Below, piece by piece: positions 4,292-64,000 of a stretch of DNA of 64,000 bases. The stretch covers positions 9,532 to 73,531 of the forward strand of contig CAYTZB010000006.1 in the NCBI GenBank assembly GCA_964442455.1, in the 5' to 3' direction. Within the stretch, counting starts at the first letter, position 1. Every line of letters starts with the position of its first letter. The stretch is from an uncultured Gammaproteobacteria bacterium. GTDB taxonomy: Bacteria > Patescibacteriota > Microgenomatia > UBA8517 > JACQJR01. The translations under genes and the position numbers were made by a program. The notes below the pieces were generated by a model. It worked only from the letters and a program-made list of their open reading frames with translations. It was not told the DNA's origin and did not search any database.

Positions 4292-4438
4292 TATATGTTT
4301 ATTCTCCACAGTTTATTTATTAATCAACAATAATTATTAACAAATAGTTAGGCGTCCTATCCACAACTAAAAATGTGCGTAGATTGCGCTCACTTATCCA
4401 AATATCAACAATACCAACAACAATAACAATTAATATTT
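4292..4438. promoter_or_regulatory. Candidate oriC (dnaA-dnaN spacer) with DnaA-box cluster and AT-rich unwinding region
   Basis: TTCTCCACA (4302-4310), CTATCCACA (4357-4365) and TTATCCAAA (4395-4403) are each one mismatch from TTATCCACA. TGTGGGGATAA spans the dnaA stop (4281-4291). The spacer is very AT-rich. Confidence 0.55.
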
Positions 4439-27123: not shown

Positions 27124-27564
27124 ATGAAGATTATAAATCGTCGAGCGCCTTATGAGTATCAACTACAAGACCGTATTGAGGCGGGTATTTCGCTCTTAGG
27201 TAGCGAAGTAAAATCAATTAAAACAGGAAGAGCAGACCTTTCAGCAAGTATTGTTCGTATGAAAGATGGACAGGCATATTTGTTAAATGCAAATATTCCA
27301 CCTTATCAAGGTGGAGTGCCACAAGATTATAATCCCACCAGAACCCGCAAACTTCTCTTGAATAAAAATGAATTAATCTTTTTAGAAACCAAGGTAAAGC
27401 AGCAGAAATTGACAATTGTGCCTACAAAAGTGTATAGTAAAGGGCAACTAATTAAGGTCGAGATAGCTTTAGCAAAGCCAAAGCGTAAGTTCGAAAAACG
27501 CGAAGCAAAGAGAAGAAAAGATGTTGAAAGAGAAATAGAGCGAGAGTTAAAACCAAGGGGATGA
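27124..27564 (+). CDS. smpB: SsrA-binding protein SmpB
   Basis: Conserved SmpB core (GSEVKSI, TRTRKLLLNKNEL) and a basic C-terminal tail. Followed by tmRNA. Confidence 0.9.
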   Translation: MKIINRRAPYEYQLQDRIEAGISLLGSEVKSIKTGRADLSASIVRMKDGQAYLLNANIPPYQGGVPQDYNPTRTRKLLLNKNELIFLETKVKQQKLTIVPTKVYSKGQLIKVEIALAKPKRKFEKREAKRRKDVEREIERELKPRG

Positions 27565-27914
27565 TAGGTTTCGACGGGAAGCACCTTAACACCCAGGCAA
27601 GCTGAGTTTGGCTCACACTCACTAAACATAAGCCAAAACAAAAACGTCAACTATCCAAGTGGACGTCTAGCGTACGCAACAGCGTAAGCGCTAGCATCTG
27701 TATTGCGTTCTCCTGCGGTGCATTATGGGTGTAAAATAGCAGGATGCTCTTTAACTCTGGTTGATCAGCAGAGGTAAAGAAAAGACCTTCTGGTCTTACC
27801 CTAAAGATTAGTGTCAGCTCTCAAACTTTTGGGGGACACAAACTAACTGACTAAGCTTGTAATACTTGGGTGCTTAGGACTTTTCGGATCCGGGTTCAAC
27901 TCCCGGCATCTCCA
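27557..27914 (+). ncRNA. ssrA: tmRNA (SsrA), CCA not encoded
   Basis: 5' GGGGATGATAGGTTTCGACGGG matches the tmRNA 5' consensus. 3' GGATCCGGGTTCAACTCCCGGCATCTCCA is the T-arm plus acceptor, complementary to the 5' GGGGATG. Candidate tag ORF ...NYPSGRLAYATA ends at TAA 27685-27687. Begins 8 nt before the smpB stop. Confidence 0.8.
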
Positions 27915-27924
27915 CTTAAAATTA

Positions 27925-35302: not shown

Positions 35303-35412
35303 TTTATTGCATTATTGTATCAAAGTTCATGTGATTGTAGAAGATAGTCAGGAAAATAATAAGCTGGATTTCTGCGTTATTTGATGGTAGAATTGAATCT
35401 GTACGTTGATAT

Positions 35413-35449
35413 TCCCCTGTAGTCCGCCAGCTGGCGGACGGCTCGCTGT
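35413..35449 (+). other. Degenerate copy of the tRNA-Asn 5' half (acceptor strand through anticodon stem) with remodelled D-arm hairpin
   Basis: TCCCCTGTAG and GGCTCGCTGT are identical to tRNA-Asn at 35707. The intervening D-arm is replaced by the perfect hairpin GTCCGCCAGCTGGCGGAC. Confidence 0.6.
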
Positions 35450-35460
35450 AAAATGGAAAT

Positions 35461-35706
35461 ATGAGTTGGTTTGTGTACGCTCTATATAATCAAGAGAGTA
35501 AAAAGATTTATATAGGACAGACCAATAATATTGGAAGAAGATTATTGGAACATAATCAAAAGAAAGGAAATCATTTTACGGCTAAAGTCCTAGGAGAATG
35601 GAAACTAGTATATAAAGAAGAATTTGAAATTAGAGAGGAAGCAATTAGGAGAGAAAAACAATTAAAAAGTTTTAGGGGTAGGGAGTTCCTTAAAAATTTA
35701 ATATAA
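35461..35706 (+). CDS. Small stand-alone GIY-YIG nuclease-domain protein (YhbQ/UPF0213-like)
   Basis: YALYNQESKKIYIGQTNNIGRRLLEHN carries the GIY-YIG core (Y..Y...YIG.T.N..RR..EH). 81 aa. The ORF ends exactly at the tRNA-Asn start. Confidence 0.7.
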   Translation: MSWFVYALYNQESKKIYIGQTNNIGRRLLEHNQKKGNHFTAKVLGEWKLVYKEEFEIREEAIRREKQLKSFRGREFLKNLI

Positions 35707-35779
35707 TCCCCTGTAGCTCAACTGGCAGAGCGGCTCGCTGTTAACGAGAAGGTTGTAGGTTCGAGTCCTACCGGGGGAG
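35707..35779 (+). tRNA. tRNA-Asn(GTT)
   Basis: U1-A72 acceptor (TCCCCTG/CGGGGGA) as in E. coli tRNA-Asn. Anticodon loop CTGTTAA. T-loop GGTTCGAGTCC. Confidence 0.8.
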
Positions 35780-35830
35780 CTGAATTGTTCTTAATCGACC
35801 CAAATTAAACTTACCATTAGTTACGTTTTT

Positions 35831-36613
35831 ATGAAATCGAAAAATAATATGTCGCAAGACAATTTACAAAAACTAAATAACTATTTTGAAAAATACATCG
35901 ACGGGATGATTATCAAGGATATCCAGCTATTAGAAGCGAGGAATGGTGAGCTAAAATTTTCCTACCCGTATATTTTATTAGTTTGTAGCTGTATTGATCT
36001 GTTCGGCGGTATCGAAAAGGGTTTTACTAAACCTAATGGACGGAGAAATTCGGAAAAGAGATTTAAATGGTTTATTACTGAATGGATGGGTTTAGTAAAT
36101 CCTCTATATAAGGAAAGTAGTCTTGCTTATTTAATTTATGATAGTTGGAGGTGTGGCATAGTTCATCAGGCTACCCTGAAAAAAGGATTTGAAACCTCAT
36201 CTTATATGTATCCCAGAGATAAACATTTGCATTATATTGAAGATAATGAAAGAATTTTTGTACACTCCTTGCAATTTGCAGACGATTTAATTGAAGCTCA
36301 AAAGTTGTATAGAAAACATATAAATGAGAACGCAACAGATACTGTTTACATAGACTCGTTGTATAACCACCTATTGAATATGATTGGTGAAAATAATGTT
36401 AAGACAAATCGAATTTATAACCAATTTATCCAATTTCTACAAAGAAACAATTTAGTATTTAAATCATTGAGTAGCACTTCTATGAAATCTTCTACCAAAT
36501 CAACATCGTCAACATCGTCAAGTTCTTATTCTCAAGAGAATATTACGCGCTTGCCGGATGAATTATTGCCTGCTGTCCCCTCTGCTGCGCCAGAGGAAGA
36601 TGATTTAGAATAA
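35831..36613 (+). CDS. Hypothetical protein (260 aa), AT-rich, first gene of island
   Basis: Intact ORF with island-like composition and a Ser/Thr-rich C-terminal tail. No motif assignable. Confidence 0.45.
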   Translation: MKSKNNMSQDNLQKLNNYFEKYIDGMIIKDIQLLEARNGELKFSYPYILLVCSCIDLFGGIEKGFTKPNGRRNSEKRFKWFITEWMGLVNPLYKESSLAYLIYDSWRCGIVHQATLKKGFETSSYMYPRDKHLHYIEDNERIFVHSLQFADDLIEAQKLYRKHINENATDTVYIDSLYNHLLNMIGENNVKTNRIYNQFIQFLQRNNLVFKSLSSTSMKSSTKSTSSTSSSSYSQENITRLPDELLPAVPSAAPEEDDLE

Positions 36614-36773
36614 CTGAAGAATTTACCATTTTAAATAATTTTATTTGCTTCAATCTTTCTCTTGCTTGTTCAGCTCATGCAGGATTTTGAAAAGCTTTGA
36701 TAATTGTGGTTAAACAGTCCTGTTTGATTATTTTTTCTTTATATCGTAAAGTTTGGGAGTATAATTCTAGTCT

Positions 36774-36944
36774 ATGCTCTTCGGCAAAAAGAAATGTTTA
36801 AAATGTGACAGTACAAACCTAAAGACTATTAGAACAAGTCTTTTGGGTAAATTATTTTGGCCATTAGGTCATCCATTCTGGACTAGGGCACCGCGACCTC
36901 TTAATGTTTGCAGAGATTGTGGATTTAGTTGGGAAGATAGATAG
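36774..36944 (+). CDS. Small double zinc-ribbon protein (56 aa)
   Basis: Manual translation MLFGKKKCLKCDSTNL...CRDCGFSWEDR with CxxC...CxxC. TATAAT at about 36751. Below the ORF-track cutoff. Confidence 0.35.
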   Translation: MLFGKKKCLKCDSTNLKTIRTSLLGKLFWPLGHPFWTRAPRPLNVCRDCGFSWEDR

Positions 36945-36953
36945 CACTAATAA

Positions 36954-38009
36954 ATGAAAAAACCTTGGTATAAAAAATGGTGGGGAATTTTAGCAATTAT
37001 TCTTTTTCTTTGGCCATTCTTCTTAACTTATTGGATTTGGAAGAAAAAATGGGATATCAAGCTAAGAGTTGGTTTAATCGCAGTTTTCTGGTTATTTGGT
37101 TTAATTATTCTAGCTTCCTCTGGTAGTAAGAGTGGTCAACAATCTCTTCAGGAAGGATATAAGGCAGGTAAAGGTACAGTTTCAAACTCCACATCCATTC
37201 CGACTCCTACCCCAACACCAACTGGAAAAGGAGCCGCAAAGCAAATAGCAGTTTGTCCTACCAAGACAACAGCTACATATAAAGTCATTAAATGTGTTGT
37301 TTTACTTGATGATACGAATAAACAATATAATGATTTAGAAGTAGTTATTAATCCCTCACTACGATCTCAGGAAGACAAAGTACGAGCCTTAGCAAATACA
37401 GTAAGAACGAACGAATGTCCAAAAGATTGCCTTTTAAATATTTGGGATGATGTAGATAGTGCGAATTTAGCATTCACCTATGATTTATTAAGCGAAGCAG
37501 ACCAAAACAAATGGAAACAAGATCATGCTTCTTTTTTTGCACCTGGTGGAGGATTAGAGATGCATTTTATTGCTACATTTGATACTGATGGAAATAAATT
37601 TGATTATATGGTGGAACCGCCAACTCCAGCTCCTAGAAAATTTGTTTACGAGCTGGAAAAACCATATTTTGTTGATGATGAGAAATGGCAAACAATAATT
37701 GTGCCAGATGATAGCACCATTGAAGAATTAACTAATTTAGCAAAAGATATGCACAAAAATAATCCTGAAGTTTATTATAATATTTTTGACAACAAGGATG
37801 AGTTTATAGCTTATCAAAAGTGGGCCATTTCCAAAAACGATCAGAGTGTTTACTTTCCCGATAAATGGGTAAAAGAACATTCTATAGGCATGATTAACAA
37901 AATGTTAACAACTAACAGAGGAATAAATAATAGGCTATTATGGCAATTCTATCCTACTCCAAGTGATTTCTGGGGTAATTCCGTGCCTGAAGCAGTGGAT
38001 TTGGAGTAA
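36954..38009 (+). CDS. Membrane-anchored extracytoplasmic protein (351 aa)
   Basis: Two N-terminal TM helices (WWGILAIILFLWPFFLTYWIW, VGLIAVFWLFGLIILA), then a Thr/Pro linker and a globular domain. Confidence 0.45.
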   Translation: MKKPWYKKWWGILAIILFLWPFFLTYWIWKKKWDIKLRVGLIAVFWLFGLIILASSGSKSGQQSLQEGYKAGKGTVSNSTSIPTPTPTPTGKGAAKQIAVCPTKTTATYKVIKCVVLLDDTNKQYNDLEVVINPSLRSQEDKVRALANTVRTNECPKDCLLNIWDDVDSANLAFTYDLLSEADQNKWKQDHASFFAPGGGLEMHFIATFDTDGNKFDYMVEPPTPAPRKFVYELEKPYFVDDEKWQTIIVPDDSTIEELTNLAKDMHKNNPEVYYNIFDNKDEFIAYQKWAISKNDQSVYFPDKWVKEHSIGMINKMLTTNRGINNRLLWQFYPTPSDFWGNSVPEAVDLE

Positions 38010-38089
38010 AATTTTTTGATCAAGTAGTTAGATTAATCCTAGGAATACGGAGCCAGTTGGCACTTAATATACCTAAATAAACATAAATT

Positions 38090-38485
38090 ATGACAGGTCA
38101 AACTGATCTTTCTGGGGTCCTAAAATCATTGCAGGTATCCTGCGACAATATTGAATATGGATTTGCTTCAGTCAAAGATAAACAAATAAATTTTGATGAT
38201 CAGGTTTTGGGAACATTCAAAGAAAATGAAGGTTTAACGATTATTGCGCCCAGAGAATACTTTGAAACAAACGATATTCAATACGAAGGGCCATACGCCA
38301 AGCTAACTATCGAAGTACACACATCCTTGGAACTCGTTGGCCTGACTGCTATTCTTGCTAGAAAACTGGCTGAGAATCAAATATCTGCAAATGTCGTGGC
38401 TGGATATTTTCATGACCATATTTTTGTCCAATATGCGGTTCGTCAAAAAGCAATAGAAGCCATCAATAACTTGAAGGAGAAGTAA
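38090..38485 (+). CDS. ACT-domain protein (ACT_7/DUF2241-like)
   Basis: N-terminal TDLSGVLKSLQ...YGFASV pattern and size typical of ACT_7. Pattern-based call. Confidence 0.4.
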   Translation: MTGQTDLSGVLKSLQVSCDNIEYGFASVKDKQINFDDQVLGTFKENEGLTIIAPREYFETNDIQYEGPYAKLTIEVHTSLELVGLTAILARKLAENQISANVVAGYFHDHIFVQYAVRQKAIEAINNLKEK

Positions 38486-38647
38486 TATTTACTTTTCCAA
38501 TTTCCTCTCTTATTTGGGCTACAAGCCTAAAGTCAGAGAAAGCCTTAATAATACTGGATAATTGAGTGGTTATATTACAGTTACGATTCTCGAGCACTTC
38601 GGCAAGCTCACATTTTAGCTTCAGGTTTCCTCTGGTATAATCATTCT

Positions 38648-39154
38648 ATGAAAGTAGTTCTTTACATGGCAGTAACAGGAAATGGATATATTGCTAAAGA
38701 AAATGATGATACAAGTTGGATTTCCAAAGAAGAATGGAATAGCTATAGTGCAATTGTCAGGAGGACGGGAAATCTAGTCATTGGCCATAGAACCTATGAT
38801 ATTATAACCAAACAGCCTGAGTTCAGTGAATTTGAAAAAGTTAAAATTATTATAGTTTCTCACAACGATTTCGACACTCTAAGCTTAAATCATGTAGCCG
38901 TAAAAACACCCGAAGAAGCGTTGAGTTTATTAAAAGATTTCAAGGAAGTGATAGTAGCAGGAGGAAGTAATCTAAATTCTTCATTTGTGGAAAAAGGGTT
39001 GATTGATGAAATTTATTTAGATATTGAGCCAATCATTTTTGGGAAAGGTATTAAACTTTTTACTGGCGACAATTTTGAAGCCAAACTTAAGTTGCTGGAA
39101 ACCAGAAAACTAACTGAAGATATTATTCAACTACACTATAAAGTATTAAAATAG
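38648..39154 (+). CDS. Dihydrofolate reductase-like (RibD C-terminal domain family) protein
   Basis: MKVVLYMAVTGNGYIA...LVIGHRTY...VAGGSNL pattern of YwjB/RibD_C family. Confidence 0.55.
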   Translation: MKVVLYMAVTGNGYIAKENDDTSWISKEEWNSYSAIVRRTGNLVIGHRTYDIITKQPEFSEFEKVKIIIVSHNDFDTLSLNHVAVKTPEEALSLLKDFKEVIVAGGSNLNSSFVEKGLIDEIYLDIEPIIFGKGIKLFTGDNFEAKLKLLETRKLTEDIIQLHYKVLK

Positions 39155-39243
39155 GTTCTGACCTCATCCATCTGGGGGAGCAAGGCATAAGTCTGCGTCT
39201 GGCTTCGCAAGAAGCCAAAGCAGAACTTGACTGAGGCAGGTTT

Positions 39244-39507
39244 TTAGGCTTGTAGGTTATCGCGTCGTAATATTGTTATGTCTTTTGGGATATTTTTAAG
39301 CAAAAAGTATGTAATACCCGCTGAGACAACGAAGATCACCAATCCAATGCTTGTTGTTTCAAGCTTATACCCACCCGCGGTCAACGTAAATACAGTAACG
39401 CCACTAAAACCAAATCCTGCTAATATCGCTCCCAAAAGAGATAAAATACCAAAAAGTGCGATAGCCAGTGAATAAATTATAGAAACGCGTTTTCTCTGTT
39501 TTACCAT
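39244..39507 (-). CDS. Small membrane protein (87 aa)
   Basis: Two hydrophobic helices. Convergent with the DHFR-like gene. Confidence 0.35.
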   Translation of the reverse strand: MVKQRKRVSIIYSLAIALFGILSLLGAILAGFGFSGVTVFTLTAGGYKLETTSIGLVIFVVSAGITYFLLKNIPKDITILRRDNLQA

Positions 39508-39566
39508 GTTTTATTAAATTGGGACATATTTAATACAAAATGTCAAGTTGAAAATATCCAGAATGC

Positions 39567-40991
39567 TTAATATGCAGAAGTACGGAATTTTGCCGGGTTC
39601 AGTCCCAAGAAAGTCCTAAAGTCCCGAACAGATGGATGATCGATCGGCGTATCGGAAGATCCAGAATCAGATCTCGGACCAATTTCTTCAAATGTTTCTT
39701 TATACATCGTATCCCCTTTACTCAAGAATACTTCGTAATTAACCCCTGGAAATGCTTTCTTAAACGCCGCCTCGAATATTTTTTCGTCATTGGCAAAATA
39801 CGCAGTCATAATTTCTTGTTCCGGTATCTTTTCCAATATGGCCATAAGAGCTTGGACCTCCTTAAAATATCCGGTAATATCGGCTATTTCGTAGTCGCTT
39901 AACTTAAAGCTTTTGAGCGCGGTATATTCAGTAATTCCTTCATTGATAAATACCGGTAGCGCTGATCCCTTTCTTGAGTAATGGTGAAGTGATTCGTGAA
40001 GCAAGTTGCTTAAATAGTTAAGCGCGACTTTGCCAGGAATTATCTTCATGTATATGGTTTGGGTATCATGAAGATACACACCGCCACCCAACTTCCCCTT
40101 TCCCGCTTCTAATAAATCATTTGATGTAAATTGTACGAACGCCTGGTCGTCAAGAAACTTAATGGTAGGTTTTTTAGATCTTTCAAAAGCGGAAACTACA
40201 GCCTGGTTTGAATGATGCCTAAGACGGTTAAAGGCCAATTCAATGATGAGCTTCTCTGTTCTATCTTTGCTGAAATTCCTAATGACAATGCTATTGGTGC
40301 TGGGGATAAAAAACGATCTACCCTCAGCGTCATTGCCCACAATTTCAACCAGTGATGGAAGCACGGCGCCCTCATAGACGGTCAGGGTGTCTTTCTTTTT
40401 AAGACCTCTCTTTGCTACTACTGTGCCGAATTCTCCTGCGGAATCATAGACTTCGACTATCGAGGGCGAACTCTGGATCAGTTGTATTATTTTTTCGTCG
40501 TTTGTAATGCTTCCGTTTATTGCTTTTTCGAGGCTAAATTTTAAATCGGCGTATCCGTATAAAAACGAGACCGCCAAAGAAACGGCGAATATAAAAAGAA
40601 AACTGAATACGAATACTCCCACCGCATTTACTTGTGCGACAAGAAAACGAAACAGCATTTTTAGAATTCCGCTCGCTTCTTTTTTGCGCAACTTAAATAA
40701 TCTGATGATGGAAAAAACTTCTACGATCAAGGAGTGGGCCAAGGAACACAAAAGAATGATTATGACCAAACCCTCGGAAGCCGCAGTCGCTTTTAAAAAT
40801 ACAAAGAGGATTCTTTCCCAAGGCCCTCCTTCGACTCGTGAAAATGCTGAGTTTAAGTACGTTATGTTCTTAACACCAAATATGTAAATTATTGAAACGG
40901 ATATTGAAACAATGGAGGCTATCGGCAACCAATGGGTAAATAATTTTTTTAGCGAATATCTAAAATTGTCGTCTAACGTGTTTTGTCCCAT
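39567..40991 (-). CDS. Polytopic membrane protein with C-terminal HExxH (HESLHH) zincin-like domain
   Basis: Four or more N-terminal TM helices. LLHESLHHYS motif in the soluble C-terminal domain. Confidence 0.45.
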   Translation of the reverse strand: MGQNTLDDNFRYSLKKLFTHWLPIASIVSISVSIIYIFGVKNITYLNSAFSRVEGGPWERILFVFLKATAASEGLVIIILLCSLAHSLIVEVFSIIRLFKLRKKEASGILKMLFRFLVAQVNAVGVFVFSFLFIFAVSLAVSFLYGYADLKFSLEKAINGSITNDEKIIQLIQSSPSIVEVYDSAGEFGTVVAKRGLKKKDTLTVYEGAVLPSLVEIVGNDAEGRSFFIPSTNSIVIRNFSKDRTEKLIIELAFNRLRHHSNQAVVSAFERSKKPTIKFLDDQAFVQFTSNDLLEAGKGKLGGGVYLHDTQTIYMKIIPGKVALNYLSNLLHESLHHYSRKGSALPVFINEGITEYTALKSFKLSDYEIADITGYFKEVQALMAILEKIPEQEIMTAYFANDEKIFEAAFKKAFPGVNYEVFLSKGDTMYKETFEEIGPRSDSGSSDTPIDHPSVRDFRTFLGLNPAKFRTSAY

Positions 40992-41125
40992 ACGATTGGT
41001 TTAATAATACATCACCATTTTACTGGTCACAAGATCGCCTCGGAAGCTCGTACTACCCGTTCCTTAAGTACAATATAATTTTGAAAAACTTGACAACTTG
41101 TTCTGAGACATCTTAACTGTAAGTA

Positions 41126-42217
41126 GTGGCTAAAAGAAAAATTCCTTTTATTCTCACAATAATCCTAGGAATCCTTCCTCTCCTGTTTTTTGCTTTTGCT
41201 TTTGATGCTCACGCTGAGTCTACAAGTGAAACTCCAAGGCAACTTTGCGATGATGCCCGAAGAGACGGCAGCTACACTATTCTCGAGGATACACAAGACA
41301 GGTGTGTTTATGTTCTCCCCGGCGTAATAAAACACGAGCATTTTTATCAAGGAAATCAGTTGTGTTATCGGGGAACTGGTTTTAAAGATGCTTTGACCTT
41401 TAGTTTGGATGCCGATGGAGAGGTAACGACGGAATGTTTTGACCGTGTGTATTTACCTGCACCTACTCAAGAAGTAGTCAAACAGCCATCTTCTAAACCA
41501 ACAACTGCACCTGAGAAGAGCGAAGTGCAAGAGACGGAAGCAAAAGTTTTGATTTTTGGCACAGATGTTAAAGCTGGCGATACTATCACTGCAGAAGGTA
41601 AATCCAAAATCGTTATCTTTATGCCGGACGGAGGAAAAATTGACCTAAAAGAAGGTGCGAAGATGAGGTTTTACTCGGAGGATGAGATAGAAGCCCAAAG
41701 TGGTATCTTTAGGTTTTTGATTAATCAGCTAACAGGGGGAAAGGTAAAGAAAGTAAGAACTGGAGATATGGCAGTTAGCATAAGAGGGACGGAATTTTTG
41801 GTAGAAGTTGGCAAAAATAGTACAGCGGTAAAGGTTATTGATGGTACGGTTGAGGCTTCCAGTGTTGACGGTAAAGGAACTGTCCAAGTAGCAGAAGGCC
41901 AAGAAACAAAAACTGTAAAAGGTGGACTTCCAGCAAAACCCAAGGTTTTTGACCTTAAAACTCTTGACCGGTGGTGGGAAGGATTACCCAATGAGGCGCC
42001 TTCAGATGATAGTGATCTTTGGGTAGGTCTGATTATTTTGGGGGTGTTGGGTGGAGGAATATATTGGATACTTAAAAAAATAATAAATGCACTGCGAGGG
42101 AAAGAAAAATCCAAAAAAATTGAGGCGCCCGTCAAGAACAAAAGAAGATTTTCTCCAATTTTTCTTTTAATTGTTGCCGCTCTCGCCATAATGGTAGTTT
42201 TTTTCCTCTTCTCATAG
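41126..42217 (+). CDS. Secreted/membrane-anchored protein with FecR-like beta domain and two C-terminal TM helices
   Basis: Signal peptide. FLVEVGKNSTAVKVIDGTVEA pattern resembles FecR/anti-sigma sensor folds. Weak. Confidence 0.4.
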   Translation: MAKRKIPFILTIILGILPLLFFAFAFDAHAESTSETPRQLCDDARRDGSYTILEDTQDRCVYVLPGVIKHEHFYQGNQLCYRGTGFKDALTFSLDADGEVTTECFDRVYLPAPTQEVVKQPSSKPTTAPEKSEVQETEAKVLIFGTDVKAGDTITAEGKSKIVIFMPDGGKIDLKEGAKMRFYSEDEIEAQSGIFRFLINQLTGGKVKKVRTGDMAVSIRGTEFLVEVGKNSTAVKVIDGTVEASSVDGKGTVQVAEGQETKTVKGGLPAKPKVFDLKTLDRWWEGLPNEAPSDDSDLWVGLIILGVLGGGIYWILKKIINALRGKEKSKKIEAPVKNKRRFSPIFLLIVAALAIMVVFFLFS

Positions 42218-42595
42218 CACAAAGTATAGTGTCGGGAATTGATTCGGACAACCGCTAGTAAAAAGTCGTTTCTCCGATAATCCTCCCATCGTTCGAGCCG
42301 GTGCTCTATAATATTGATTATTTTTATGGTATGTGCTATACTAGCAGCGTATCCGCAGATTGAAGCAATAGAACTGCTCGATTTTGTTTGAACCTACCCT
42401 TGAGTTTGTAAGATAAAGGTACTCCAATTTTTTACTACTAATTATCGTATCTTTTCTCCAATTTGAGAGTGATTCTTCATAATTTAGCAGTTTTATTGTT
42501 TTAATTTCCTCGTTGGATTGCTTCTAAAACTTCTAAACCTCAAAAATAGTTCCTCTTTATTACTTCTGCTATACTTTCCTCGTAACTGAAATTTC

Positions 42596-43165
42596 ATGAA
42601 CAAAAGAGTATTTCTAATACATGGTTGGGAAGGTCGGCCTGAAAATGAGTGGAGGCATTGATTAAAAAATGAACTGGAGGAACGGGGATTTCAAGTTTTT
42701 GTACCGGCAATGCCGGATACGATGAATCCTATACTGGATAAGTGGATGCCACATCTTGCACAAACAGTAGGAACTCCAGATGAAAATACTTACTTTATCG
42801 GTCATAGCGTGGGCTGTATCACTATTCTTAGATACTTAGAAGCATTGAAAAAAGGCGAGAAAGTCGGCGGGGTAGTATTAGTAGCAGGATTTGGTCATGA
42901 TCTGGAATACGAAGGGTATAAAGGTGAATTATCCAGTTTCTTTAAGACACCTGTTGATTGGGAAGAGATTAAGAAGCATTGTAATAAATTCATAGCTATT
43001 CACTCAGATGATGATCCCTGGGTACCTCTGGAACACAACAGTCTCTTTCGAGATAGGTTAGGTGCCAAAACAATCGTTGAACATAATATGAAGCACTTTA
43101 GCGAAGATGATGGGATTAATGAATTGCCCATAGCACTTGAATCTGTGCTAAAACTCGCCAAATGA
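42596..43165 (+). pseudogene. YdeN/RBBP9-family alpha/beta hydrolase interrupted by an in-frame TGA at a conserved Trp position
   Basis: MNKRVFLIHGWEGRPENEWRH-TGA-LKNELEERGFQVFVPAMPDT continues in frame into the 42710-43165 ORF. The TGA is at 42659-42661. Homolog N-termini read ...HW..WL..L. Confidence 0.6.
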
Positions 43166-43525
43166 TATTAAAATAACAAAGAGGGTGGGAATAAGCTCTA
43201 TTCATGAAGGATACGACTTGCCTTTACGCTATTTAGTAAACCCCAACTTGATAAACATACTTGATTTTTCCGATAAGAAATAGATTCTAAAGTTATCTAC
43301 CAAGCGGAGCAGATTAACTAAAAAACTTCCAGACAATAATAATTCCGGCTATTCCTCCAAGGCCGCTAAAAATAACCGAGGAAAACGAAAAGATGCCCGC
43401 CCCCCAAAGTGCCGGAATGTAGGCTCCGATAATCGAACCGATTATGGCGACTATATAAAAAAGAGTTTTTGAAGACACATTAAATTATTCTACACCCTTT
43501 GTTTTGATATACTTAAATTGCCCCG

Positions 43526-44038
43526 ATGAAAAAGATAATTTTAATTTTGTTGATAATTTTCGGAGCACTAATTGCGATTGGGGGAAAGGCAATCCAGTCA
43601 GGAGAATTAGGCAGATATTGTAAAACAAACCCTTCGTTTTTCCGACTTGGCTTTCTAAATAATCTTTGTACGAGCATAAACCTTAATTCTACCCTTAAAT
43701 GTAGTTATATTACTCATACTTGTGAGAACGTGATTTCCCAAAAAGATTCTGGTGATTATAAAATTACCATTACGGTTAATGGAAAACCTGGGAAAGGAAT
43801 CGAAGTTGACTTGGGAGTTAACTCAGGCCCCACAGGTGATTCATATGTAAAAACCACGGACTATAACGGCATCGCCGTTTTTAAAGGAATTCCCCCTGGT
43901 GTTTACTATCAAAGTGCGAACCTTTCGAATTTTCCCAAGGAATATGGGGATGCGTATAAAACCTGGAGTTGGGAAAATGTAGAAATTGTCGAAGGGAAAA
44001 CGACAGAGATGAAAATCGATTTGCATACAACTCCTTAA
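43526..44038 (+). CDS. Secreted protein with prealbumin/carboxypeptidase-regulatory-like domain
   Basis: Signal peptide. TDYNGIAVFKGIPPGVYY motif. Followed by hairpin terminator. Confidence 0.5.
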   Translation: MKKIILILLIIFGALIAIGGKAIQSGELGRYCKTNPSFFRLGFLNNLCTSINLNSTLKCSYITHTCENVISQKDSGDYKITITVNGKPGKGIEVDLGVNSGPTGDSYVKTTDYNGIAVFKGIPPGVYYQSANLSNFPKEYGDAYKTWSWENVEIVEGKTTEMKIDLHTTP

Positions 44039-44042
44039 TATT

Positions 44043-44066
44043 AGACTTGGATACTAAGTCTTTTAA
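44043..44066 (+). terminator. Rho-independent terminator
   Basis: AGACTT-GGATACT-AAGTCT followed by TTTTAAT. Confidence 0.5.
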
Positions 44067-44301
44067 TCTCCTCCCACCTCACTCTTATCAATTCCATTTG
44101 AATAACATTCTCAAAAGCTCTTAGAGTGAGGGTCATATTGACAAACTGTAGTACTTGCTGTTCACTGAAATAAGACCCTCTTTCGCGTAAAGCTTCAGAG
44201 GGCAGGGAGGAGGTGAATTGCCCTATGCCAAAGTTCTCTGAATGTACAAAGCCTCATGCACTCATTCATCTTGTTTCTGGTGCAGGAATTGGAATTTTGC
44301 T

Positions 44302-45117
44302 CTATAGTTTGATTCCCGGTCTTGCTGCCATGGGAGCAACGCTCGGAGTTATTTTAGTGGTAGCTGCGATTGCGGGAGAATTTGTCTGGAATAAGTAAAG
44401 GGAGTTTCTTGCCGTTCTGTCAACACGATATCCGAAGATGTCACGCAATTGCTGGAATCGTTGGACTCGCACTTGGCCTTCATAGTTATCCGGCCCCACC
44501 CCTAAATATGAGCGGATTGCATCCTCAAGAGTCCAGTAGGACTGTTGTGCTTCTTTCTCCGGATTTTTTCCATACGCGTCCAAGGCATCGCGGTCAAGCT
44601 TCCACGCACCCCAGAGGATTTCTCTCCAGTCGTCGGAGTTATCATACTGCGCAAGCCATTCGTGTCCTCTGACTGCTTTCTCAACTTCAGAATCAGGGTG
44701 GTCGGGGATATATCGTTGCATCGTGCCGTATTGTCCATTGCGGATTACATAGGTTCTGGGATCAAGGGAACATGTACTCTCTGCATCCTGAAGCATCCAG
44801 GGTAAATACCAAGGAACATAATAAGCGTCCTGTGCAACCCTATGAAACACATAATATGTGCGAAGAATATCGAGGTTTCCTAATACTCCACTGGGTCGTA
44901 ATTTTGCGATTGTACCATAATGCTCAAGGAAGAGTGGCACGACTACTTCCTCGAATTCTCTGCGATAATAAGCAAGTTTTTCCTCGTTTTCAAGAAACAA
45001 ACCAATGAGTTTACCTAATTCATGCGGAGCGAAGGCAGCCATAAGTGCACTTTTTTGCGCACTTTCAAACAACTGGCGGCGAGAGAGTCGCTGAGAAAGC
45101 AAAATTTCTATTCTCAT
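44302..45117 (-). CDS. Hypothetical protein (271 aa)
   Basis: Long ORF with host-like GC content. Its 3' end is ambiguous because it overlaps a plausible small plus-strand membrane ORF at 44213-44398. Confidence 0.45.
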   Translation of the reverse strand: MRIEILLSQRLSRRQLFESAQKSALMAAFAPHELGKLIGLFLENEEKLAYYRREFEEVVVPLFLEHYGTIAKLRPSGVLGNLDILRTYYVFHRVAQDAYYVPWYLPWMLQDAESTCSLDPRTYVIRNGQYGTMQRYIPDHPDSEVEKAVRGHEWLAQYDNSDDWREILWGAWKLDRDALDAYGKNPEKEAQQSYWTLEDAIRSYLGVGPDNYEGQVRVQRFQQLRDIFGYRVDRTARNSLYLFQTNSPAIAATTKITPSVAPMAARPGIKL

Positions 45118-50615: not shown

Positions 50616-50856
50616 ATTAACCTAATTGACCTAATTTCTAATTTCGAGCAAAGCGAGAAACAAGCTCTGCTTATAACAGCATTCAAGAAAACTCCCGACT
50701 TTTATTCGGGTGATGAATTGAACGCTGATATGTCATTCTCCTTTAGAGGAGAAACCCCGCTCTTTAGAGCGGGGAGAATGTCATTGCTCTAAAAATTTTG
50801 GGCATTGGGACATTGAGATTTGATTAGGAATTAGAATAATTAGGAATTAGAAATTT
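50616..50856. repeat. Intergenic inverted-repeat element (CTAATTTCTAATT arm ... AATTAGAATAATTAGGAATTAGAAATT arm) with internal nested hairpins
   Basis: 44-bp core ctaatttctaatttcgagcaaagcgagaaacaagctctgcttat identical to 51889-51932. Right arm identical to 51988-52016. Related copies at 12008-12150, 31407-31514, 56785-56823 and 22881-22905. Confidence 0.7.
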
Positions 50857-61174: not shown

Positions 61175-62074
61175 ATGAACTGTGAATTGAGTAATGTGGT
61201 AACAAAAGATGGGGTAAATCTTCAAGGATTGCTTTTTACTCCCACTCTTTCCACCGATACAGTTGGCATTTTGATTCATGGGCTGGGAAGTAATTTCTAT
61301 GGTGGATACACACGTCTTACTACTCTTGCTCGTTATTTTATGAGAAATAAATTAGCACTTGCGACATTTAATACAAGAGGGCACGATGTTGTTACCTTTG
61401 CCACAAAACAAGACAAAAGAAAGCAAAAGGGATACAGAGGGATTCGAGTGGGGGCAGCGTTTGAGAAGTTTACCGACAGCGTATTAGACCTTGAGGCAAT
61501 AGTTGAGGTGTTAGGGAAACGATACTCTAACGTAGTTCTTATTGGCCACAGTACAGGTGCAAATAAAGTAGTCTACTATCTTTCTAGAAGAAACGTGCAG
61601 AAAAAGATAGCTGGAGCAATTCTTATTTCTCCAGTGAGTGATGTACCTATGGTGCAAGAGAGATTAGGAGGGGATCTAGAAGAGGCGCTTAACGTTGCTC
61701 GGAAGATGGTGAAGAGTGGGAAGAGTAGTGAGTTAGTCAAGCAGATTTTACCCCAGTCAATTTACAGCGCCCAACGATTGGTTTCGCTAGGAGACCAGAG
61801 GAGTATTGAGCAGATGTTTCCGACAAAAGAATTTCAGGGACCGCTTCGCCTCGTCAAGAAGATTAAAATCCCCATCCTTGTTTTGTTTGGAGACAAAGAC
61901 GATTATCTTAGAGTTGATGGGGTATCTGTCAACGTACTTCTTGATGCGTTTAGAAGCAATACCGAAAGTCGCTCTTTCTCGACTCATGTTATGCCCCAAG
62001 CGGATCATAGTTTCAGTGGGAAAGAAGAAGAACTTGCACAAAACCTTGTTGAGTGGATTAAAAAGAACAACTAA
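61175..62074 (+). CDS. Alpha/beta hydrolase
   Basis: Nucleophile elbow GHSTG. Catalytic Asp/His region (DKDD, ADHSF). Confidence 0.7.
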   Translation: MNCELSNVVTKDGVNLQGLLFTPTLSTDTVGILIHGLGSNFYGGYTRLTTLARYFMRNKLALATFNTRGHDVVTFATKQDKRKQKGYRGIRVGAAFEKFTDSVLDLEAIVEVLGKRYSNVVLIGHSTGANKVVYYLSRRNVQKKIAGAILISPVSDVPMVQERLGGDLEEALNVARKMVKSGKSSELVKQILPQSIYSAQRLVSLGDQRSIEQMFPTKEFQGPLRLVKKIKIPILVLFGDKDDYLRVDGVSVNVLLDAFRSNTESRSFSTHVMPQADHSFSGKEEELAQNLVEWIKKNN

Positions 62075-63198
62075 GTTTTAATCATCATATAGCCAACCTT
62101 CTTGTGATTTTCGATGACATATCCCTGTTGTGCAAACGTTGGGTTTTTTCTCAACCGATAAATAAGAGCATTGAGTGCCCATTCTGATGCTTCAACAGGA
62201 TCTTCTGGCCACACCGTTTCAAATAGTTCATCTTTCGGTACCACTTTTCCGAGATTTTTCTTAAGAAGCCTAAAAAGCCATGCTTCTTTAACCGGGAGTC
62301 GTAGAGGAATATTTGACTGTACAAACTCGGTGAGAAGTGGTGTAAAGAGGTGATACGAATGTGAGTACTTGACGACTAACCCCACGTCTACAAGATACTC
62401 ATCTATAGTGGTTACCTTTTTCCGCAGCGCAATTTTTTGAACGATTTTTCTTTGATCATAGGTAAGATAATCATAGAAAAGTTTTAGTTGGGTTTTTACG
62501 AAATGATCAAAGAGTGGATTTTCAAGTCTTTCAGATTTAAGGAGCAACTGGAGCAGTTGATAATGGCCTCCACAAAGCTTTAGTGCTTTTTCCAGAGATA
62601 CTTTGTCTTTGGTTAGCTCTGGCGCATTTATAACGAGGAGCTTTCTGAGATCATGAGTGGAGTAGGGGATTAAGTACAATGTTTTTGAGTACATATTTAA
62701 GTTACCTTTATCAATAGCCTGGGGAGCAAGCATGTAGAGAGGTTTGTTTGCTGCAAAGATCATCACAATTTTTTCTCTGTCTACATCACGAAGTGTTCGT
62801 AAGTTATTAAAAAAACTAATATCAAACTCTTTGTGCATCTGATCAAAACGGTTGAAAATAATAACGACTCTTGTATGTGTTTTGGTCAAGTCCTCTAAAC
62901 GTTTTTGACATGCTTTGAGCAATTGTTCGTAATTTTTTGAACTTGAATGCGTACCCAGTTCTTTTAAAAGGAGCTTTACTAGTTCGATTCGAGTAAGCGC
63001 TGAGAGTTCATAAACATCTACATGTACAAAATGAGCAAAAGGTTGGGTTGCCACATATCGTAAAAAGATGGAGATTCCTAGTCCTGGCATCCCAACAGTG
63101 GTGAATGATATTGAAGTGTTAATTAATTTTTTAATTGCCACAACCCTTTTTTTACAAAATTCAGACCCCAAATGTCTCTCTTTAAAGTTGTATTTCAT
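62071..63198 (-). CDS. Protein with N-terminal NTPase-like domain and C-terminal OmpR/PhoB-type winged-helix DNA-binding domain
   Basis: C-terminal ELFETVWPEDPVEASEWALNALIYRLRKN matches the trans_reg_C pattern. N-terminal TTVGMPGLGIS is P-loop-like but lacks Lys. Confidence 0.5.
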   Translation of the reverse strand: MKYNFKERHLGSEFCKKRVVAIKKLINTSISFTTVGMPGLGISIFLRYVATQPFAHFVHVDVYELSALTRIELVKLLLKELGTHSSSKNYEQLLKACQKRLEDLTKTHTRVVIIFNRFDQMHKEFDISFFNNLRTLRDVDREKIVMIFAANKPLYMLAPQAIDKGNLNMYSKTLYLIPYSTHDLRKLLVINAPELTKDKVSLEKALKLCGGHYQLLQLLLKSERLENPLFDHFVKTQLKLFYDYLTYDQRKIVQKIALRKKVTTIDEYLVDVGLVVKYSHSYHLFTPLLTEFVQSNIPLRLPVKEAWLFRLLKKNLGKVVPKDELFETVWPEDPVEASEWALNALIYRLRKNPTFAQQGYVIENHKKVGYMMIKT

Positions 63199-63275
63199 TT
63201 TGAATTTATATTCGTCATGATTATATCATTTTTTAATCAAGCAAAAGATAACAAATCAATTATTATTATCTAAGT

Positions 63276-63869
63276 ATGCATCGAGAATTATATAGACATC
63301 CAGACGTGCGTAGAGGCATAGAGGATAGAAAATCAGAACTCACGTTTCAAAAAGGACAAGCGGAATCTGCTCATCAGATGTTAAGTCACACAGAGGAAAG
63401 GTACAACAGAGACCTGAGGGTGTATCTTGGCACACAAACGGATGATCCTTTAGCACGACGTACAGAATGGTTAGAAAATATTCTAGAGAGTGCTGAAAGG
63501 GAAGAAGTCGATTCGGAATGGCTTTATGCTGTGGTTAACAACGCAGCAATGCGTGTAGAAAAAGTGAGCGCAAGTCTTTATCCACGAGAATTGGGAGTAG
63601 ACAATGAGCATGAGAGTTTAAATGACGAGTATATTTCTTATGTGTATGCGTTACATTTAATAACCTTAGCAGAACAAAGTATCTATCCATATTACAGTCC
63701 CGTACAGGAAGTTTTGAAAGAAGTTGAACAGTTGGCTCAAGCTCGCGAAGCTTCGCAAGAAGTTCGTCGAGACAGAAGAATGAGTGTTGCTTATCGCTGG
63801 ATGCACCAAAATTTGGACGTTTTATTTAAAATTCATCATGATTATTGGTCTGCTCATTCTCCAAAATAA
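63276..63869 (+). CDS. Hypothetical protein (197 aa)
   Basis: Intact ORF. No motif. Confidence 0.4.
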   Translation: MHRELYRHPDVRRGIEDRKSELTFQKGQAESAHQMLSHTEERYNRDLRVYLGTQTDDPLARRTEWLENILESAEREEVDSEWLYAVVNNAAMRVEKVSASLYPRELGVDNEHESLNDEYISYVYALHLITLAEQSIYPYYSPVQEVLKEVEQLAQAREASQEVRRDRRMSVAYRWMHQNLDVLFKIHHDYWSAHSPK

Positions 63870-63885
63870 AAATCTATGGCTCTAG

Positions 63886-64000
63886 AAAGAAATGAAGAAT
63901 CAGAGGAACCTAAGGTTCCCGAAACAGAGGATGGAGGAATTGATTTAGATGATCCTTTTGTGAAGCTTTTTAGAAGATTTATGCTTGAGAGCATCGCGCG
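63886..64000 (+). CDS. Hypothetical acidic protein, 5' part only (runs off window)
   Basis: MALERNEESEEPKVPETEDGG... open to the window end. Confidence 0.3.

What the first reader, a model, noticed from the sequence alone, without database searches (positions are those of the whole stretch)
35780..44200. AT-rich genomic island of about 8.4 kb downstream of tRNA-Asn
Composition drops sharply. Genes here are visibly AT-rich, with Lys/Asn/Ile-rich proteins, versus about 50% GC on both flanks. The content is a set of orphan, secreted, membrane and decayed genes: a 260-aa orphan, zinc-ribbon micro-protein, membrane proteins, an ACT protein, a DHFR-like protein, an HExxH membrane protein, a FecR-like secreted protein, a broken hydrolase and a prealbumin-like secreted protein. 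It contains long non-coding stretches (42218-42595, 43166-43525). This fits horizontally acquired DNA integrated at tRNA-Asn and now partly degrading. No integrase remains.
Basis: seen in the sequence. Interest (0 to 1): 0.55.

Follow-up and report, generated by a model that had tools for sequence, protein, structure and literature searches.

The report
Composite AT-rich island beside tRNA-Asn
The AT-rich stretch after tRNA-Asn in this Microgenomates (CPR) genome is real, but only its first 3.8 kb is mobile-element cargo left at the tRNA end without its recombinase; the rest is native DNA with decaying genes, so this is an ordinary, if well resolved, genomic island.

Summary

**Composition.** The tract 35780-44200 has GC 0.372, against 0.441 for the rest of the window (not about 0.50). 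It is not one block.

**Segment A (35781-~39556, GC 0.347, z = -5).** This segment starts exactly at the tRNA-Asn 3' end.
- A 94%-identical relative diverges from the window at that base.
- Its cassettes are 91-96% identical in nucleotides to low-GC contigs. One of these contigs carries a large serine recombinase, an excisionase-like HTH protein and a primase-polymerase/helicase. The end of its recombinase gene holds a 38-bp copy of the window's tRNA-end junction.
- The so-called 260-aa orphan belongs to a conserved family. This family recurs as terminal cargo of tRNA-integrated serine-recombinase elements.
- No recombinase remains in the window.

**Segment B (39567-42217).** Its composition is close to native, and its HExxH gene has a probable ortholog in a near relative.

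**Segment C (42218-44200).** This is ancestral DNA. The hydrolase (in-frame TGA) and a remnant of a deleted Mpg glycosylase gene are syntenic in relatives at 67-69% identity.

**Verdict.** A degraded integrative-element cargo array at tRNA-Asn, next to a native decaying region. It is a new member of a known kind, of moderate interest.

**Side observation.** A recurrent architecture of tRNA 5' fragment, GIY-YIG ORF and intact tRNA lies just upstream.

The parts
35411..35452 (+). Partial copy of the 5' half of tRNA-Asn: the acceptor 5' arm, a GC hairpin in place of the D arm, and the anticodon-stem 5' side up to CTGT. It lies upstream of the GIY-YIG ORF and outside the reported interval.
   Evidence: Repeat families D17 and D18 and the sequence itself. 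The same arrangement is seen in relatives L084, L085, L086 and L012.
35461..35706 (+). An 81-aa protein consisting only of a GIY-YIG nuclease domain. GC is 0.29. It is conserved at this position in relatives.
   Evidence: Pfam PF01541, E = 1e-17. Found in L084, L085 and L086.
35707..35780 (+). tRNA-Asn (GTT). Its last base is the left boundary of the mobile segment.
   Evidence: ARAGORN and Rfam, 64 bits. Homology to the 94% relative L084 ends at 35780.
35767..35804 (+). attL-like junction: the last 14 nt of the tRNA plus the next 24 nt. It matches 32/38 with the 3' end of the serine recombinase gene of element contig L095.
   Evidence: blastn. The L095 recombinase ORF is at 7691-9223.
35831..36613 (+). 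260-aa protein of a conserved, uncharacterised family (invariant D56, G64, R77, F81, Y93, Y103, R107, G109, H112). It recurs as terminal cargo of tRNA-integrated serine-recombinase elements, next to restriction-type genes.
   Evidence: AlphaFold2 model with pLDDT 87.8 and no Foldseek match in PDB or BFVD. No Pfam, PHROG, PADLOC or NCBIfam hit.
36722..38037 (+). Cassette holding a 56-aa zinc-ribbon ORF (36774-36944) and a 351-aa membrane-anchored protein (36954-38009). It is 91.5% identical in nucleotides to L095 9768-11072.
38026..38080 (+). Conserved intergenic linker J1 (50/55 identical to L095 12147-12201). Different genes lie beside it in the two sequences.
38090..38485 (+). ACT-domain protein (131 aa). 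It occupies the slot held by a 346-aa TPR-like gene in L095.
   Evidence: Pfam ACT_3/ACT_7.
38499..38553 (+). Conserved intergenic linker J2 (48/55 identical to L095 13283-13337).
38592..38610 (+). GAGC|ACTTCGGCAAGCTCA. The 19-mer is identical to the end of tRNA-Asn plus its trailer in the 94% relative L084. It may be the right scar of a 2.8-kb insertion, but the motif is also a short dispersed hairpin in this clade.
   Evidence: the caveat comes.
38648..39154 (+). RibD_C/DHFR-like reductase (168 aa).
   Evidence: Pfam PF01872, E = 2e-18; NCBIfam and PHROG hits.
39167..39181 (+). Degenerate direct copy of the tRNA-Asn 3' end (TCCATCTGGGGGAGC, 12/15). Homology to element-like contig L104 starts here.
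   Evidence: It is the best match in the whole window apart from the tRNA. The chance probability in 8.4 kb is about 0.026.
39168..39547 (-). Cassette with an 87-aa membrane protein (39244-39507). It is 86-96% identical in nucleotides to JGI contig L104 (GC 0.365), where the neighbours are different and include an HTH_3 gene. This is the right end of the compositionally anomalous segment.
39567..40991 (-). 474-aa membrane protein with a C-terminal HExxH...E (gluzincin-like) domain. Its composition is near native, and it has a probable ortholog in a near relative.
   Evidence: L100 is 88% identical in nucleotides to 40414-41003. L101 has a 55-64% homologue in a chromosomal cell-envelope context. 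Alignment A2. Model with pLDDT 88.6 and no PDB match.
41126..42217 (+). FecR-domain protein (363 aa) with a signal peptide and C-terminal transmembrane segments. Its composition is core-like. The neighbour at this position differs in relative L100.
   Evidence: Pfam FecR; composition.
42596..43165 (+). Ser_hydrolase (YdeN-like) pseudogene with an in-frame TGA at 42659-42661 where Trp is expected. The gene is ancestral: 82.6% amino-acid identity to the syntenic gene in L092.
43140..43290 (+). C-terminal remnant of a deleted 3-methyladenine DNA glycosylase (Pur_DNA_glyco/Mpg) gene. The gene is intact in relatives L092 and L094.
43526..44038 (+). 170-aa secreted protein with a weak CarboxypepD_reg-like match. 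It is absent from this position in L092 and L094, so it is a lineage-specific insertion.
44225..44398 (+). Conserved 57-aa membrane ORF. It marks the start of the syntenic right flank.

Best explanation
The tract is a composite of three parts.

**1. 35781 to about 39556 is an immobilised cargo array at the tRNA-Asn 3' end.**
- It comes from, or has exchanged DNA with, low-GC integrative elements of Microgenomates. These elements carry a large serine recombinase, an excisionase-like HTH protein and a primase-polymerase/helicase.
- *Inferred mechanism:*
  - The recombinase integrates the element with a crossover at or next to ...GGGAGC|, the last bases of the tRNA. The tRNA therefore stays intact and no long direct repeat is made.
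  - Later loss of the recombinase and replication module, together with repeated integrations, leaves cargo cassettes. These are separated by att-like scars and by conserved intergenic linkers, at which homologous recombination swaps cassettes.
- *Shown here:* the boundary at the tRNA end, the cassette homologies, the junction match to a recombinase-bearing contig, and the absence of a recombinase in the window.

**2. 39567-42217 holds two envelope-protein genes that are probably native.** Their neighbourhood is variable.

**3. 42218-44200 is ancestral DNA undergoing gene decay.** It has a hydrolase nonsense codon, a deletion of Mpg, and a small lineage-specific insertion.
For: **Composition**
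- Only 35781-39550 is anomalous (GC 0.347, z = -5.0).

**Left boundary**
- Relative L084 has 94% identity in the flanking acyltransferase protein and 87-92% nucleotide identity. Its alignment with the window ends exactly at the tRNA-Asn 3' end.

**Element link (L095/L103, GC 0.36)**
- The contig carries an HTH_3 repressor-like gene, a primase-polymerase/helicase (phrog_19930, 2e-39), an HTH_17 protein and a large serine recombinase (phrog_95, 3e-83).
- Directly after these it carries cargo collinear with the window:
  - a 38-bp junction (32/38) that spans the tRNA end;
  - 1.3 kb at 91.5% identity;
  - linkers J1 and J2, with different genes between them.

**Other cassettes**
- The 87-aa cassette is 96% identical to another low-GC contig, L104. 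That homology starts at a 12/15 copy of the tRNA 3' end (P about 0.03).
- Homologues of the 260-aa protein are the last cargo gene of an element integrated at tRNA-His next to a serine recombinase (L097/L098). Another follows an RM/SNF2-PLD pair (L096).

**Native parts**
- The hydrolase and 57-aa ORF are syntenic in L092, and the 57-aa ORF in L094. Mpg is intact in both, and only a remnant is left in the window.
- The 474-aa gene is 88% identical in nucleotides in L100. A homologue lies in a chromosomal context in L101.

**Assembly**
- The arrangement from the ACT gene (about 38.05 kb) to the right flank recurs in one to three further contigs from separate sequencing runs.
- The left junction is covered only by the window and by one independent MAG contig that is 99.96% identical.
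Against: - There is no recombinase gene, and no clear attR, in the window.
- The 19-mer shared with the tRNA trailer of L084 (38592-38610) could be an independent copy of a short dispersed hairpin motif. It also occurs, with one mismatch, at L084 5875 and L092 2201.
- The L095 contig is open at both ends and has no tRNA. It cannot be decided whether its cargo belongs to the element or to a resident island beside an integrated element.
- The right junction of the window does not resemble the recombinase-side arm of L095.
- Synonymous codon usage and dinucleotide signature of segment A are not distinctive.
- No homologues were found in IMG/VR or GenBank phages.
- The origin of the ACT, RibD_C and FecR genes was not tested in relatives.
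Confidence: 0.6

Rival explanations
1. Segment A is a long-standing chromosomal flexible island downstream of tRNA-Asn. Its cassettes are exchanged between strains by homologous recombination at conserved linkers. On this reading, L095 shows a serine-recombinase element that integrated next to such an island, with the 38-bp site being its attR. It is not the source of the cargo.
For: - Linkers J1 and J2 are conserved while different genes lie between them.
- The window's right junction does not resemble the recombinase arm of L095.
- The 346-aa gene of L095 is at least 90% identical to proteins on large Woesebacteria contigs, up to 750 kb.
Against: - The closest relative seen (L084) lacks the 24 nt that the window and L095 share after the tRNA.
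- The cargo side of L095 has the same low GC as the element.
- The 260-aa family is clearly inside recombinase-bounded elements in L097.
Confidence: 0.25
2. The whole interval 35780-44200 is one horizontally acquired island that integrated at tRNA-Asn and is now decaying.
For: - The whole interval is AT-rich: GC 0.372 against 0.441.
- It contains pseudogenes and non-coding stretches.
- It starts at a tRNA.
Against: - The hydrolase, the Mpg remnant and the 57-aa ORF are syntenic with the conserved right flank in relatives at 67-69% identity.
- The 474-aa gene is probably orthologous in a near relative.
- Segment B is compositionally unremarkable (z = -1.7).
- There are internal breakpoints at 36722, 38026-38080, 38499-38553, 39167, 39547 and 41003.
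Confidence: 0.07
3. There was no horizontal transfer. The tract is native, fast-evolving, weakly constrained DNA whose AT-richness reflects mutational bias and membrane or secreted protein composition.
For: - Codon bias and dinucleotide signature are not distinctive.
- Native dnaN has GC 0.38.
- Segments B and C behave this way.
Against: - Cassettes of segment A are 91-96% identical in nucleotides to contigs with entirely different neighbours, including a recombinase.
- Synteny with a 94% relative breaks abruptly at the tRNA end.
- GC of 0.347 is below every other window of the same length.
Confidence: 0.08

Closest known systems
tRNA-associated genomic islands and degraded integrative elements (classical GIs at tRNA 3' ends)
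   Same: - It abuts the 3' end of an intact tRNA gene.
- Its GC is lower than that of the host.
- It carries accessory genes and genes of unknown function.
- It is variable between close relatives.
- The mobility genes have been lost.
   Different: - The related elements use a large serine recombinase rather than the usual tyrosine integrase.
- There is no long direct repeat of the tRNA end.
- The truly anomalous part is only 3.8 kb. It is itself a mosaic of sub-kilobase to 2.8-kb pieces.
Tycheposons and the tRNA-linked genomic islands of Prochlorococcus (bioRxiv 10.1101/2020.12.28.424599)
   Same: - The host has a streamlined genome.
- L095 combines a site-specific recombinase, an excisionase-like gene, a primase/helicase replication module and cargo.
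- Cargo and partial tRNA-like scars are left next to a tRNA.
- There is evidence of successive events at one site (for the published features).
   Different: - The host phylum is different.
- The recombinase here is a large serine recombinase, which is the minority type in tycheposons.
- Homology to tycheposon hallmark genes was not tested.
- No excision or activity data exist.
- The window itself has no element, only the presumed remnant.
Large-serine-recombinase prophages and elements (phiC31, Bxb1 and A118 type; named from my own knowledge)
   Same: - L095 and L097 encode proteins of 510-546 aa with Resolvase and Recombinase domains (Zn_ribbon_recom also in L097).
- The att-like site lies next to or overlaps the end of the recombinase gene.
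- No long repeats flank the L097 element.
   Different: - No capsid or tail genes were recognised.
- The targets are tRNA 3' ends rather than sites inside protein-coding genes.
- The att sites are inferred only.
Phage 'moron'/mosaic modules with conserved boundary sequences (named from my own knowledge)
   Same: Different genes occupy the same slot between conserved short intergenic linkers (J1 and J2).
   Different: - No phage context has been shown.
- The function of the linkers (promoter, terminator or recombination site) is untested.

Membership tests
tRNA-linked genomic island / degraded integrative element | It lies directly next to the 3' end of a tRNA gene. | tested here: met
   tRNA-Asn is at 35707-35780. 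Homology to relative L084 stops at 35780.
tRNA-linked genomic island / degraded integrative element | Its composition differs from that of the host. | tested here: met
   This holds for 35781-39550 only (GC 0.347, z = -5.0). Segments B and C are not clearly anomalous. Codon bias is not distinctive.
tRNA-linked genomic island / degraded integrative element | It contains an integrase or recombinase gene. | tested here: not met
   No recombinase domain was found in the ORFs scanned from 34.4 to 48.4 kb. The L095 and L097 loci, which include their recombinase genes, gave no tblastx match to the window outside the shared cargo genes. It can therefore only be called a remnant.
tRNA-linked genomic island / degraded integrative element | It is flanked by direct repeats (attL/attR) derived from the tRNA end. 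| tested here: inconclusive
   No repeat was found with 3 or fewer mismatches in 16-22 nt. There is a 12/15 copy at 39167-39181 (P about 0.03). A GAGC+trailer 19-mer lies at 38592-38610, but it may be a dispersed motif.
tRNA-linked genomic island / degraded integrative element | Its presence varies among close relatives. | tested here: met
   L084 has a second GIY-YIG ORF instead. L092 and L094 share only the right 1.7 kb. The look-ups by exact protein sequence found the complete block only in near-identical assemblies.
tRNA-linked genomic island / degraded integrative element | Its cargo is shared with bona fide mobile elements. | tested here: met
   L095/L103 carries a serine recombinase, a primase-polymerase and a 91.5%-identical cassette. 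L104 has a 96%-identical cassette. L097 is a recombinase-bounded element with a 260-aa homologue.
Large-serine-recombinase integrative element | It encodes a recombinase with Resolvase, Recombinase and zinc-ribbon domains. | tested here: not met
   It is absent from the window. It is present in the related contigs L095 (510 aa) and L097 (546 aa).
Large-serine-recombinase integrative element | Its att sites have a short core and imperfect dyad symmetry, without long repeats. | tested here: inconclusive
   The L095 site shows a TTAG...CTAA dyad centred on GAGC|TG (my reading of the sequence). L097 has no long repeat. There is no functional test.
Tycheposon-like element | It is modular: a tRNA-specific integrase, an excisionase, a primase/helicase and cargo. 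| tested here: inconclusive
   The modules are present in L095 but not in the window. The tRNA specificity of L095 rests on a 38-bp match only.
Tycheposon-like element | Its hallmark genes are homologous to the Prochlorococcus tycheposon gene families. | not tested
   No tycheposon profiles were available. Only the paper was consulted.
Integron cassette array | It has an IntI tyrosine integrase and attC sites between the cassettes. | tested here: not met
   No tyrosine recombinase was found. No repeated attC-like inverted repeats were found between the genes. Linkers J1 and J2 are unrelated to each other. No attC covariance model was run.

The most novel reading that the evidence does not exclude
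Microgenomates (CPR) may have a tycheposon-like system. In this reading, small low-GC elements carrying a large serine recombinase, an excisionase and a primase-polymerase load and shuffle cargo cassettes at tRNA 3' ends. The cargo would include a new-fold 260-aa family associated with restriction-type genes. The same tRNA genes would also be targeted on their 5' side by minimal GIY-YIG cassettes that regenerate the tRNA. tRNA-Asn would then be a two-sided hotspot of genome plasticity in an otherwise streamlined genome.
Probability: 0.3. Interest if true: 0.6.

Novelty: new member of a known kind. Interest (0 to 1): 0.38.

Why it matters
- CPR/Patescibacteria genomes are small, and two full-text literature searches found no description of tRNA-linked islands in them.
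- This locus links an AT-rich island at a tRNA to a specific class of serine-recombinase/primase-polymerase elements.
- The locus is resolved to base-level breakpoints. It shows cassette turnover and separates acquired DNA from native gene decay.
- It yields two conserved uncharacterised protein families with confident models: the 260-aa cargo protein and a membrane HExxH...E protein.
- It reveals a recurrent architecture of tRNA fragment, GIY-YIG ORF and intact tRNA that could be followed up.
- As a genomic island as such, it is ordinary.

Tried and rejected
**Searches that found nothing**
- A search for direct repeats of the tRNA-Asn 3' end at 3 or fewer mismatches found none. A looser scan found one 12/15 copy.
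- The GTDB species representatives hold nothing close. The nearest RpoD is only 65% identical, and there is no synteny beyond dnaG-rpoD, so they were useless for presence/absence.
- IMG/VR scans with the 351-aa protein, the 260-aa protein, the L095 recombinase and the junction pattern found nothing.
- A GenBank phage blastn of segment A found nothing.
- Rfam at E up to 10 found no partial tRNA at the fragment or at the scars.
- PADLOC, PHROG, NCBIfam and Pfam gave nothing for the 260-, 351-, 474-, 87- and 56-aa proteins. The 170-aa protein gave only weak matches (Pfam CarboxypepD_reg below its cut-off; one NCBIfam match at E = 0.003).
- Foldseek against PDB found no match for either model, and Foldseek against BFVD found none for the 260-aa model.
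- A PDB sequence-profile search for the 260-aa family found nothing.

- I wasted the last homologous-protein search on a concatenation of orphan proteins. Low-complexity words saturated the 8000 candidates and not even the self-hits scored. That result is uninformative and must not be read as 'no homologues'.
I worked around it through the listing of cluster members.

**Tests that did not settle the point**
- The L095 contig shows no terminal overlap, so circularity is not shown.
- Codon usage and dinucleotide signature did not discriminate segment A from the core.

**Readings rejected**
- An integron-like cassette array: there is no IntI and no attC.
- A group I intron carrying the GIY-YIG ORF: only 294 bp separate the repeats, which leaves no room for a ribozyme.
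- UGA recoding of the hydrolase stop: Trp is expected at that codon, and the lineage otherwise uses code 11.

Full report
**Source and context**

The window is 99.96% identical to contig JACPFY010000006.1 of GCA_016182755.1, named 'Candidatus Microgenomates bacterium'. It contains dnaA-dnaN, smpB-tmRNA, a cluster of tRNA genes, dnaG-rpoD, an acyltransferase-like gene and then tRNA-Asn. The nearest species representatives in the genome collection have RpoD only 65% identical and share no synteny beyond dnaG-rpoD. Comparisons therefore had to rely on metagenome contigs of closer relatives.

**Check of the observation**

The window has GC 0.431, or 0.441 outside the tract. The interval 35780-44200 has GC 0.372, lower than any other 8.4-kb window (minimum 0.424, z = -6.7). 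The tract is real, but the flanks are about 0.44-0.49 rather than 0.50.

The drop is uneven:
- 35781-39550 has GC 0.347 (z = -5.0). No equal-length window elsewhere is below 0.395.
- 39551-42217 has GC 0.405 (z = -1.7). Seven per cent of windows are as low.
- 42218-44200 has GC 0.377 (z = -2.5).

Core genes such as dnaN (GC 0.38) and dnaA (GC 0.41) fall in the same range as segment B. Synonymous codon bias against the core is unremarkable (z 0.2-1.6), as is the dinucleotide signature of segments A and B. The signal lies in amino-acid composition: FYMINK is 0.31-0.40, against 0.247 +/- 0.035.

The 'orphans', however, are not orphans: an exhaustive HMMER search found 373 homologues for the 260-, 351- and 474-aa proteins together.

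**Left boundary**

A relative from Hainich groundwater (L084) has 94% identity in the flanking acyltransferase protein and 87-92% nucleotide identity. It aligns with the window up to the last base of tRNA-Asn (35780) and then diverges completely, with a second small GIY-YIG ORF in place of the 260-aa gene. No repeat of the tRNA 3' end was found at 3 or fewer mismatches in 16-22 nt.

**Link to mobile elements**

*Contig L095/L103.* A protein at least 90% identical to the 351-aa protein lies on a 20-kb Logan contig of GC 0.36. That contig encodes, in order:
- an HTH_3 regulator;
- an 813-aa primase-polymerase/helicase (phrog_19930, 2e-39);
- an HTH_17/MerR excisionase-like protein;
- a 510-aa large serine recombinase (phrog_95, 3e-83);
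- cargo immediately after the recombinase.

The contig matches the window in four places:
- A 38-bp stretch at the very end of the recombinase gene matches window 35767-35804 (32/38). This is the last 14 nt of tRNA-Asn plus the next 24 nt.
- L095 9768-11072 matches window 36722-38037 at 91.5% (the zinc-ribbon ORF and the 351-aa gene).
- Two short intergenic linkers match: J1 at 38026-38080 (50/55) and J2 at 38499-38553 (48/55).

The genes between these matches differ: AAA_33 in L095 against the 260-aa gene in the window, an extra SNase gene in L095, and a 346-aa TPR-like gene in L095 against ACT in the window.

*Contig L104.* The 87-aa membrane-protein cassette (39168-39547) is 86-96% identical to another low-GC contig, L104, which has an HTH_3 gene and otherwise unrelated small ORFs. 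That homology begins at a 12/15 copy of the tRNA-Asn 3' end (39167-39181). This copy is the best such match in the whole window, with a chance probability of about 0.03. The homology ends 20 nt before the stop codon of the 474-aa gene, where GC rises.

*The 260-aa family.* This is a conserved family with nine invariant residues.
- In L097/L098 a 57% homologue is the last gene of a roughly 10-kb element. The serine recombinase gene of that element abuts the 3' end of tRNA-His. Mrr-type and Zn-ribbon genes lie beside the homologue.
- In L096 a 63% homologue follows an SNF2/PLD protein and a type IIG restriction-modification enzyme.
- The L097 element has no long repeat of the tRNA end. The lack of such a repeat in the window is therefore not evidence against integration.

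*A possible right scar.* The 19-mer GAGC|ACTTCGGCAAGCTCA at 38592-38610 is identical to the end of tRNA-Asn plus its trailer in L084, and it is unique in the window. This would make 35781-38595 a precise 2.8-kb insertion. The motif also occurs with one mismatch at two other places in relatives. It may therefore be a dispersed hairpin, and I treat this point as suggestive only.

**Native parts**

*Right flank.* Two relatives (L092 and L094) have 67-69% identity in the right-flank 271-aa protein and keep the right-flank gene order. On the island side they have a conserved 57-aa ORF (window 44225-44398), followed by an intact Mpg DNA glycosylase. In L092 this is followed by the Ser_hydrolase, at 82.6% amino-acid identity to window 42818-43168.

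*State of these genes in the window.*
- The hydrolase has TGA where Trp is expected (42659-42661).
- Mpg is reduced to its last 40 or so codons (about 43140-43290).
- A 54-aa ORF and the 170-aa gene occupy the space.
- In L094 the hydrolase is the gene that has been deleted.

This part is therefore ancestral and is decaying in different ways in different lineages.

*The 474-aa gene.* It is 88% identical in nucleotides in a Hainich contig (L100), which is the same divergence as the core flank. The neighbour upstream differs there. A 55-64% homologue lies among signal peptidase, CAAX protease and lectin-domain genes at GC 0.43 (L101). The family has an invariant HExxH...E motif.

**Interpretation**

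The finding is a composite.
- The first 3.8 kb is mobile cargo left at the tRNA-Asn 3' end by serine-recombinase elements, or exchanged with them. It is now without a recombinase.
- The remaining 4.6 kb is native DNA, with two envelope genes and a decaying ancestral stretch.

L095 is open at both ends, shows no terminal overlap and has no tRNA. It is therefore undecided whether the cargo came inside an element of the L095 type, or whether it belongs to a resident flexible island beside which such elements integrate. The closest published parallel is the pairing of tycheposons and genomic islands in Prochlorococcus.

**Function of the genes**

None of the cargo genes could be assigned a function beyond its domains: ACT, RibD_C/DHFR-like, zinc ribbon and membrane anchors. 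The 260-aa and 474-aa proteins gave confident AlphaFold2 models (pLDDT 87.8 and 88.6). Neither had a Foldseek match in PDB, and the 260-aa model had none in BFVD.

**Side observation**

Directly upstream of tRNA-Asn lies a partial copy of the tRNA's 5' half with a GC hairpin in place of the D arm (35411-35452). It is followed by an 81-aa GIY-YIG ORF and then the intact tRNA. The same architecture occurs in:
- L084 and L085;
- L086, a 70% relative with a different GIY-YIG protein and a roughly 70-nt insert in the D-loop of the fragment;
- L012, at a tRNA-Ile(UAU) in a distant relative.

It looks like a minimal homing cassette that targets tRNA genes and restores them. I did not test this further.

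**Verdict**

This is a new member of a known kind, of moderate interest.

Noticed in passing
window 35411-35780; also L084 270-850, L086 1-480, L012 690-1200: A recurrent architecture: a 5' fragment of a tRNA with a GC-rich hairpin inserted in or replacing the D-loop, then a GIY-YIG-only ORF of about 75-84 aa, then an intact copy of the same tRNA. It is seen at tRNA-Asn in the window, in L084/L085 and in a 70% relative (L086), and at tRNA-Ile(UAU) in a distant relative (L012). L084 also has a second GIY-YIG ORF 40 nt downstream of tRNA-Asn. It may be a minimal homing cassette that targets tRNA genes and regenerates them.
   Followed up: partly
window 38592-38610; L084 255-273 and about 5875; L092 about 2201; window 50667-50773 against L092 5351-5457: Short GC-rich hairpin motifs recur in intergenic DNA of this clade. 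One is GAGC-ACTTCGGCAA-GCTC with a UUCG-type loop. Others resemble CCTCGCAGCTTGCTGCGGGG. They may be REP/MITE-like elements or RNA processing or terminator elements. One follows tRNA-Asn directly in L084.
   Followed up: partly
window 44302-44398: The 271-aa right-flank ORF is about 28-30 aa longer at its C-terminus than its 241-243 aa homologues. It overlaps the conserved 57-aa ORF on the opposite strand by 97 nt. The homologues in L092 and L094 do not overlap that ORF. A stop codon has probably been lost or shifted.
   Followed up: no
window 27557-27917: The tmRNA after smpB is confirmed by Rfam (134 bits). The tag peptide proposed by ARAGORN (ASICIAFSCGALWV*) is atypical and may be mis-called.
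   Followed up: no
window 2891-5536: A second AT-rich patch (GC 0.34-0.39 in 1-kb windows) is dnaA-dnaN, which probably marks the replication origin region. It shows that native genes here can reach GC 0.38.
   Followed up: partly
window 62000-64000: A further AT-rich patch (GC 0.36-0.38) lies at the window edge. It holds a 375-aa protein with a C-terminal Trans_reg_C domain. I did not examine whether it is accessory DNA.
   Followed up: no
L095 12209-13249: The 346-aa TPR-like cargo gene of the element contig is at least 90% identical to proteins in several Woesebacteria and uncultured MAGs (37 contigs, the longest 750 kb). This suggests a widely shared or mobile gene among Microgenomates.
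   Followed up: no
L085 1-60: In one Hainich contig the GIY-YIG ORF is followed by a tRNA-Asn with a different anticodon stem (GGGTCACTGTTAATGAC...). This hints at allelic replacement of the tRNA, or at strain heterogeneity at this site.
   Followed up: no
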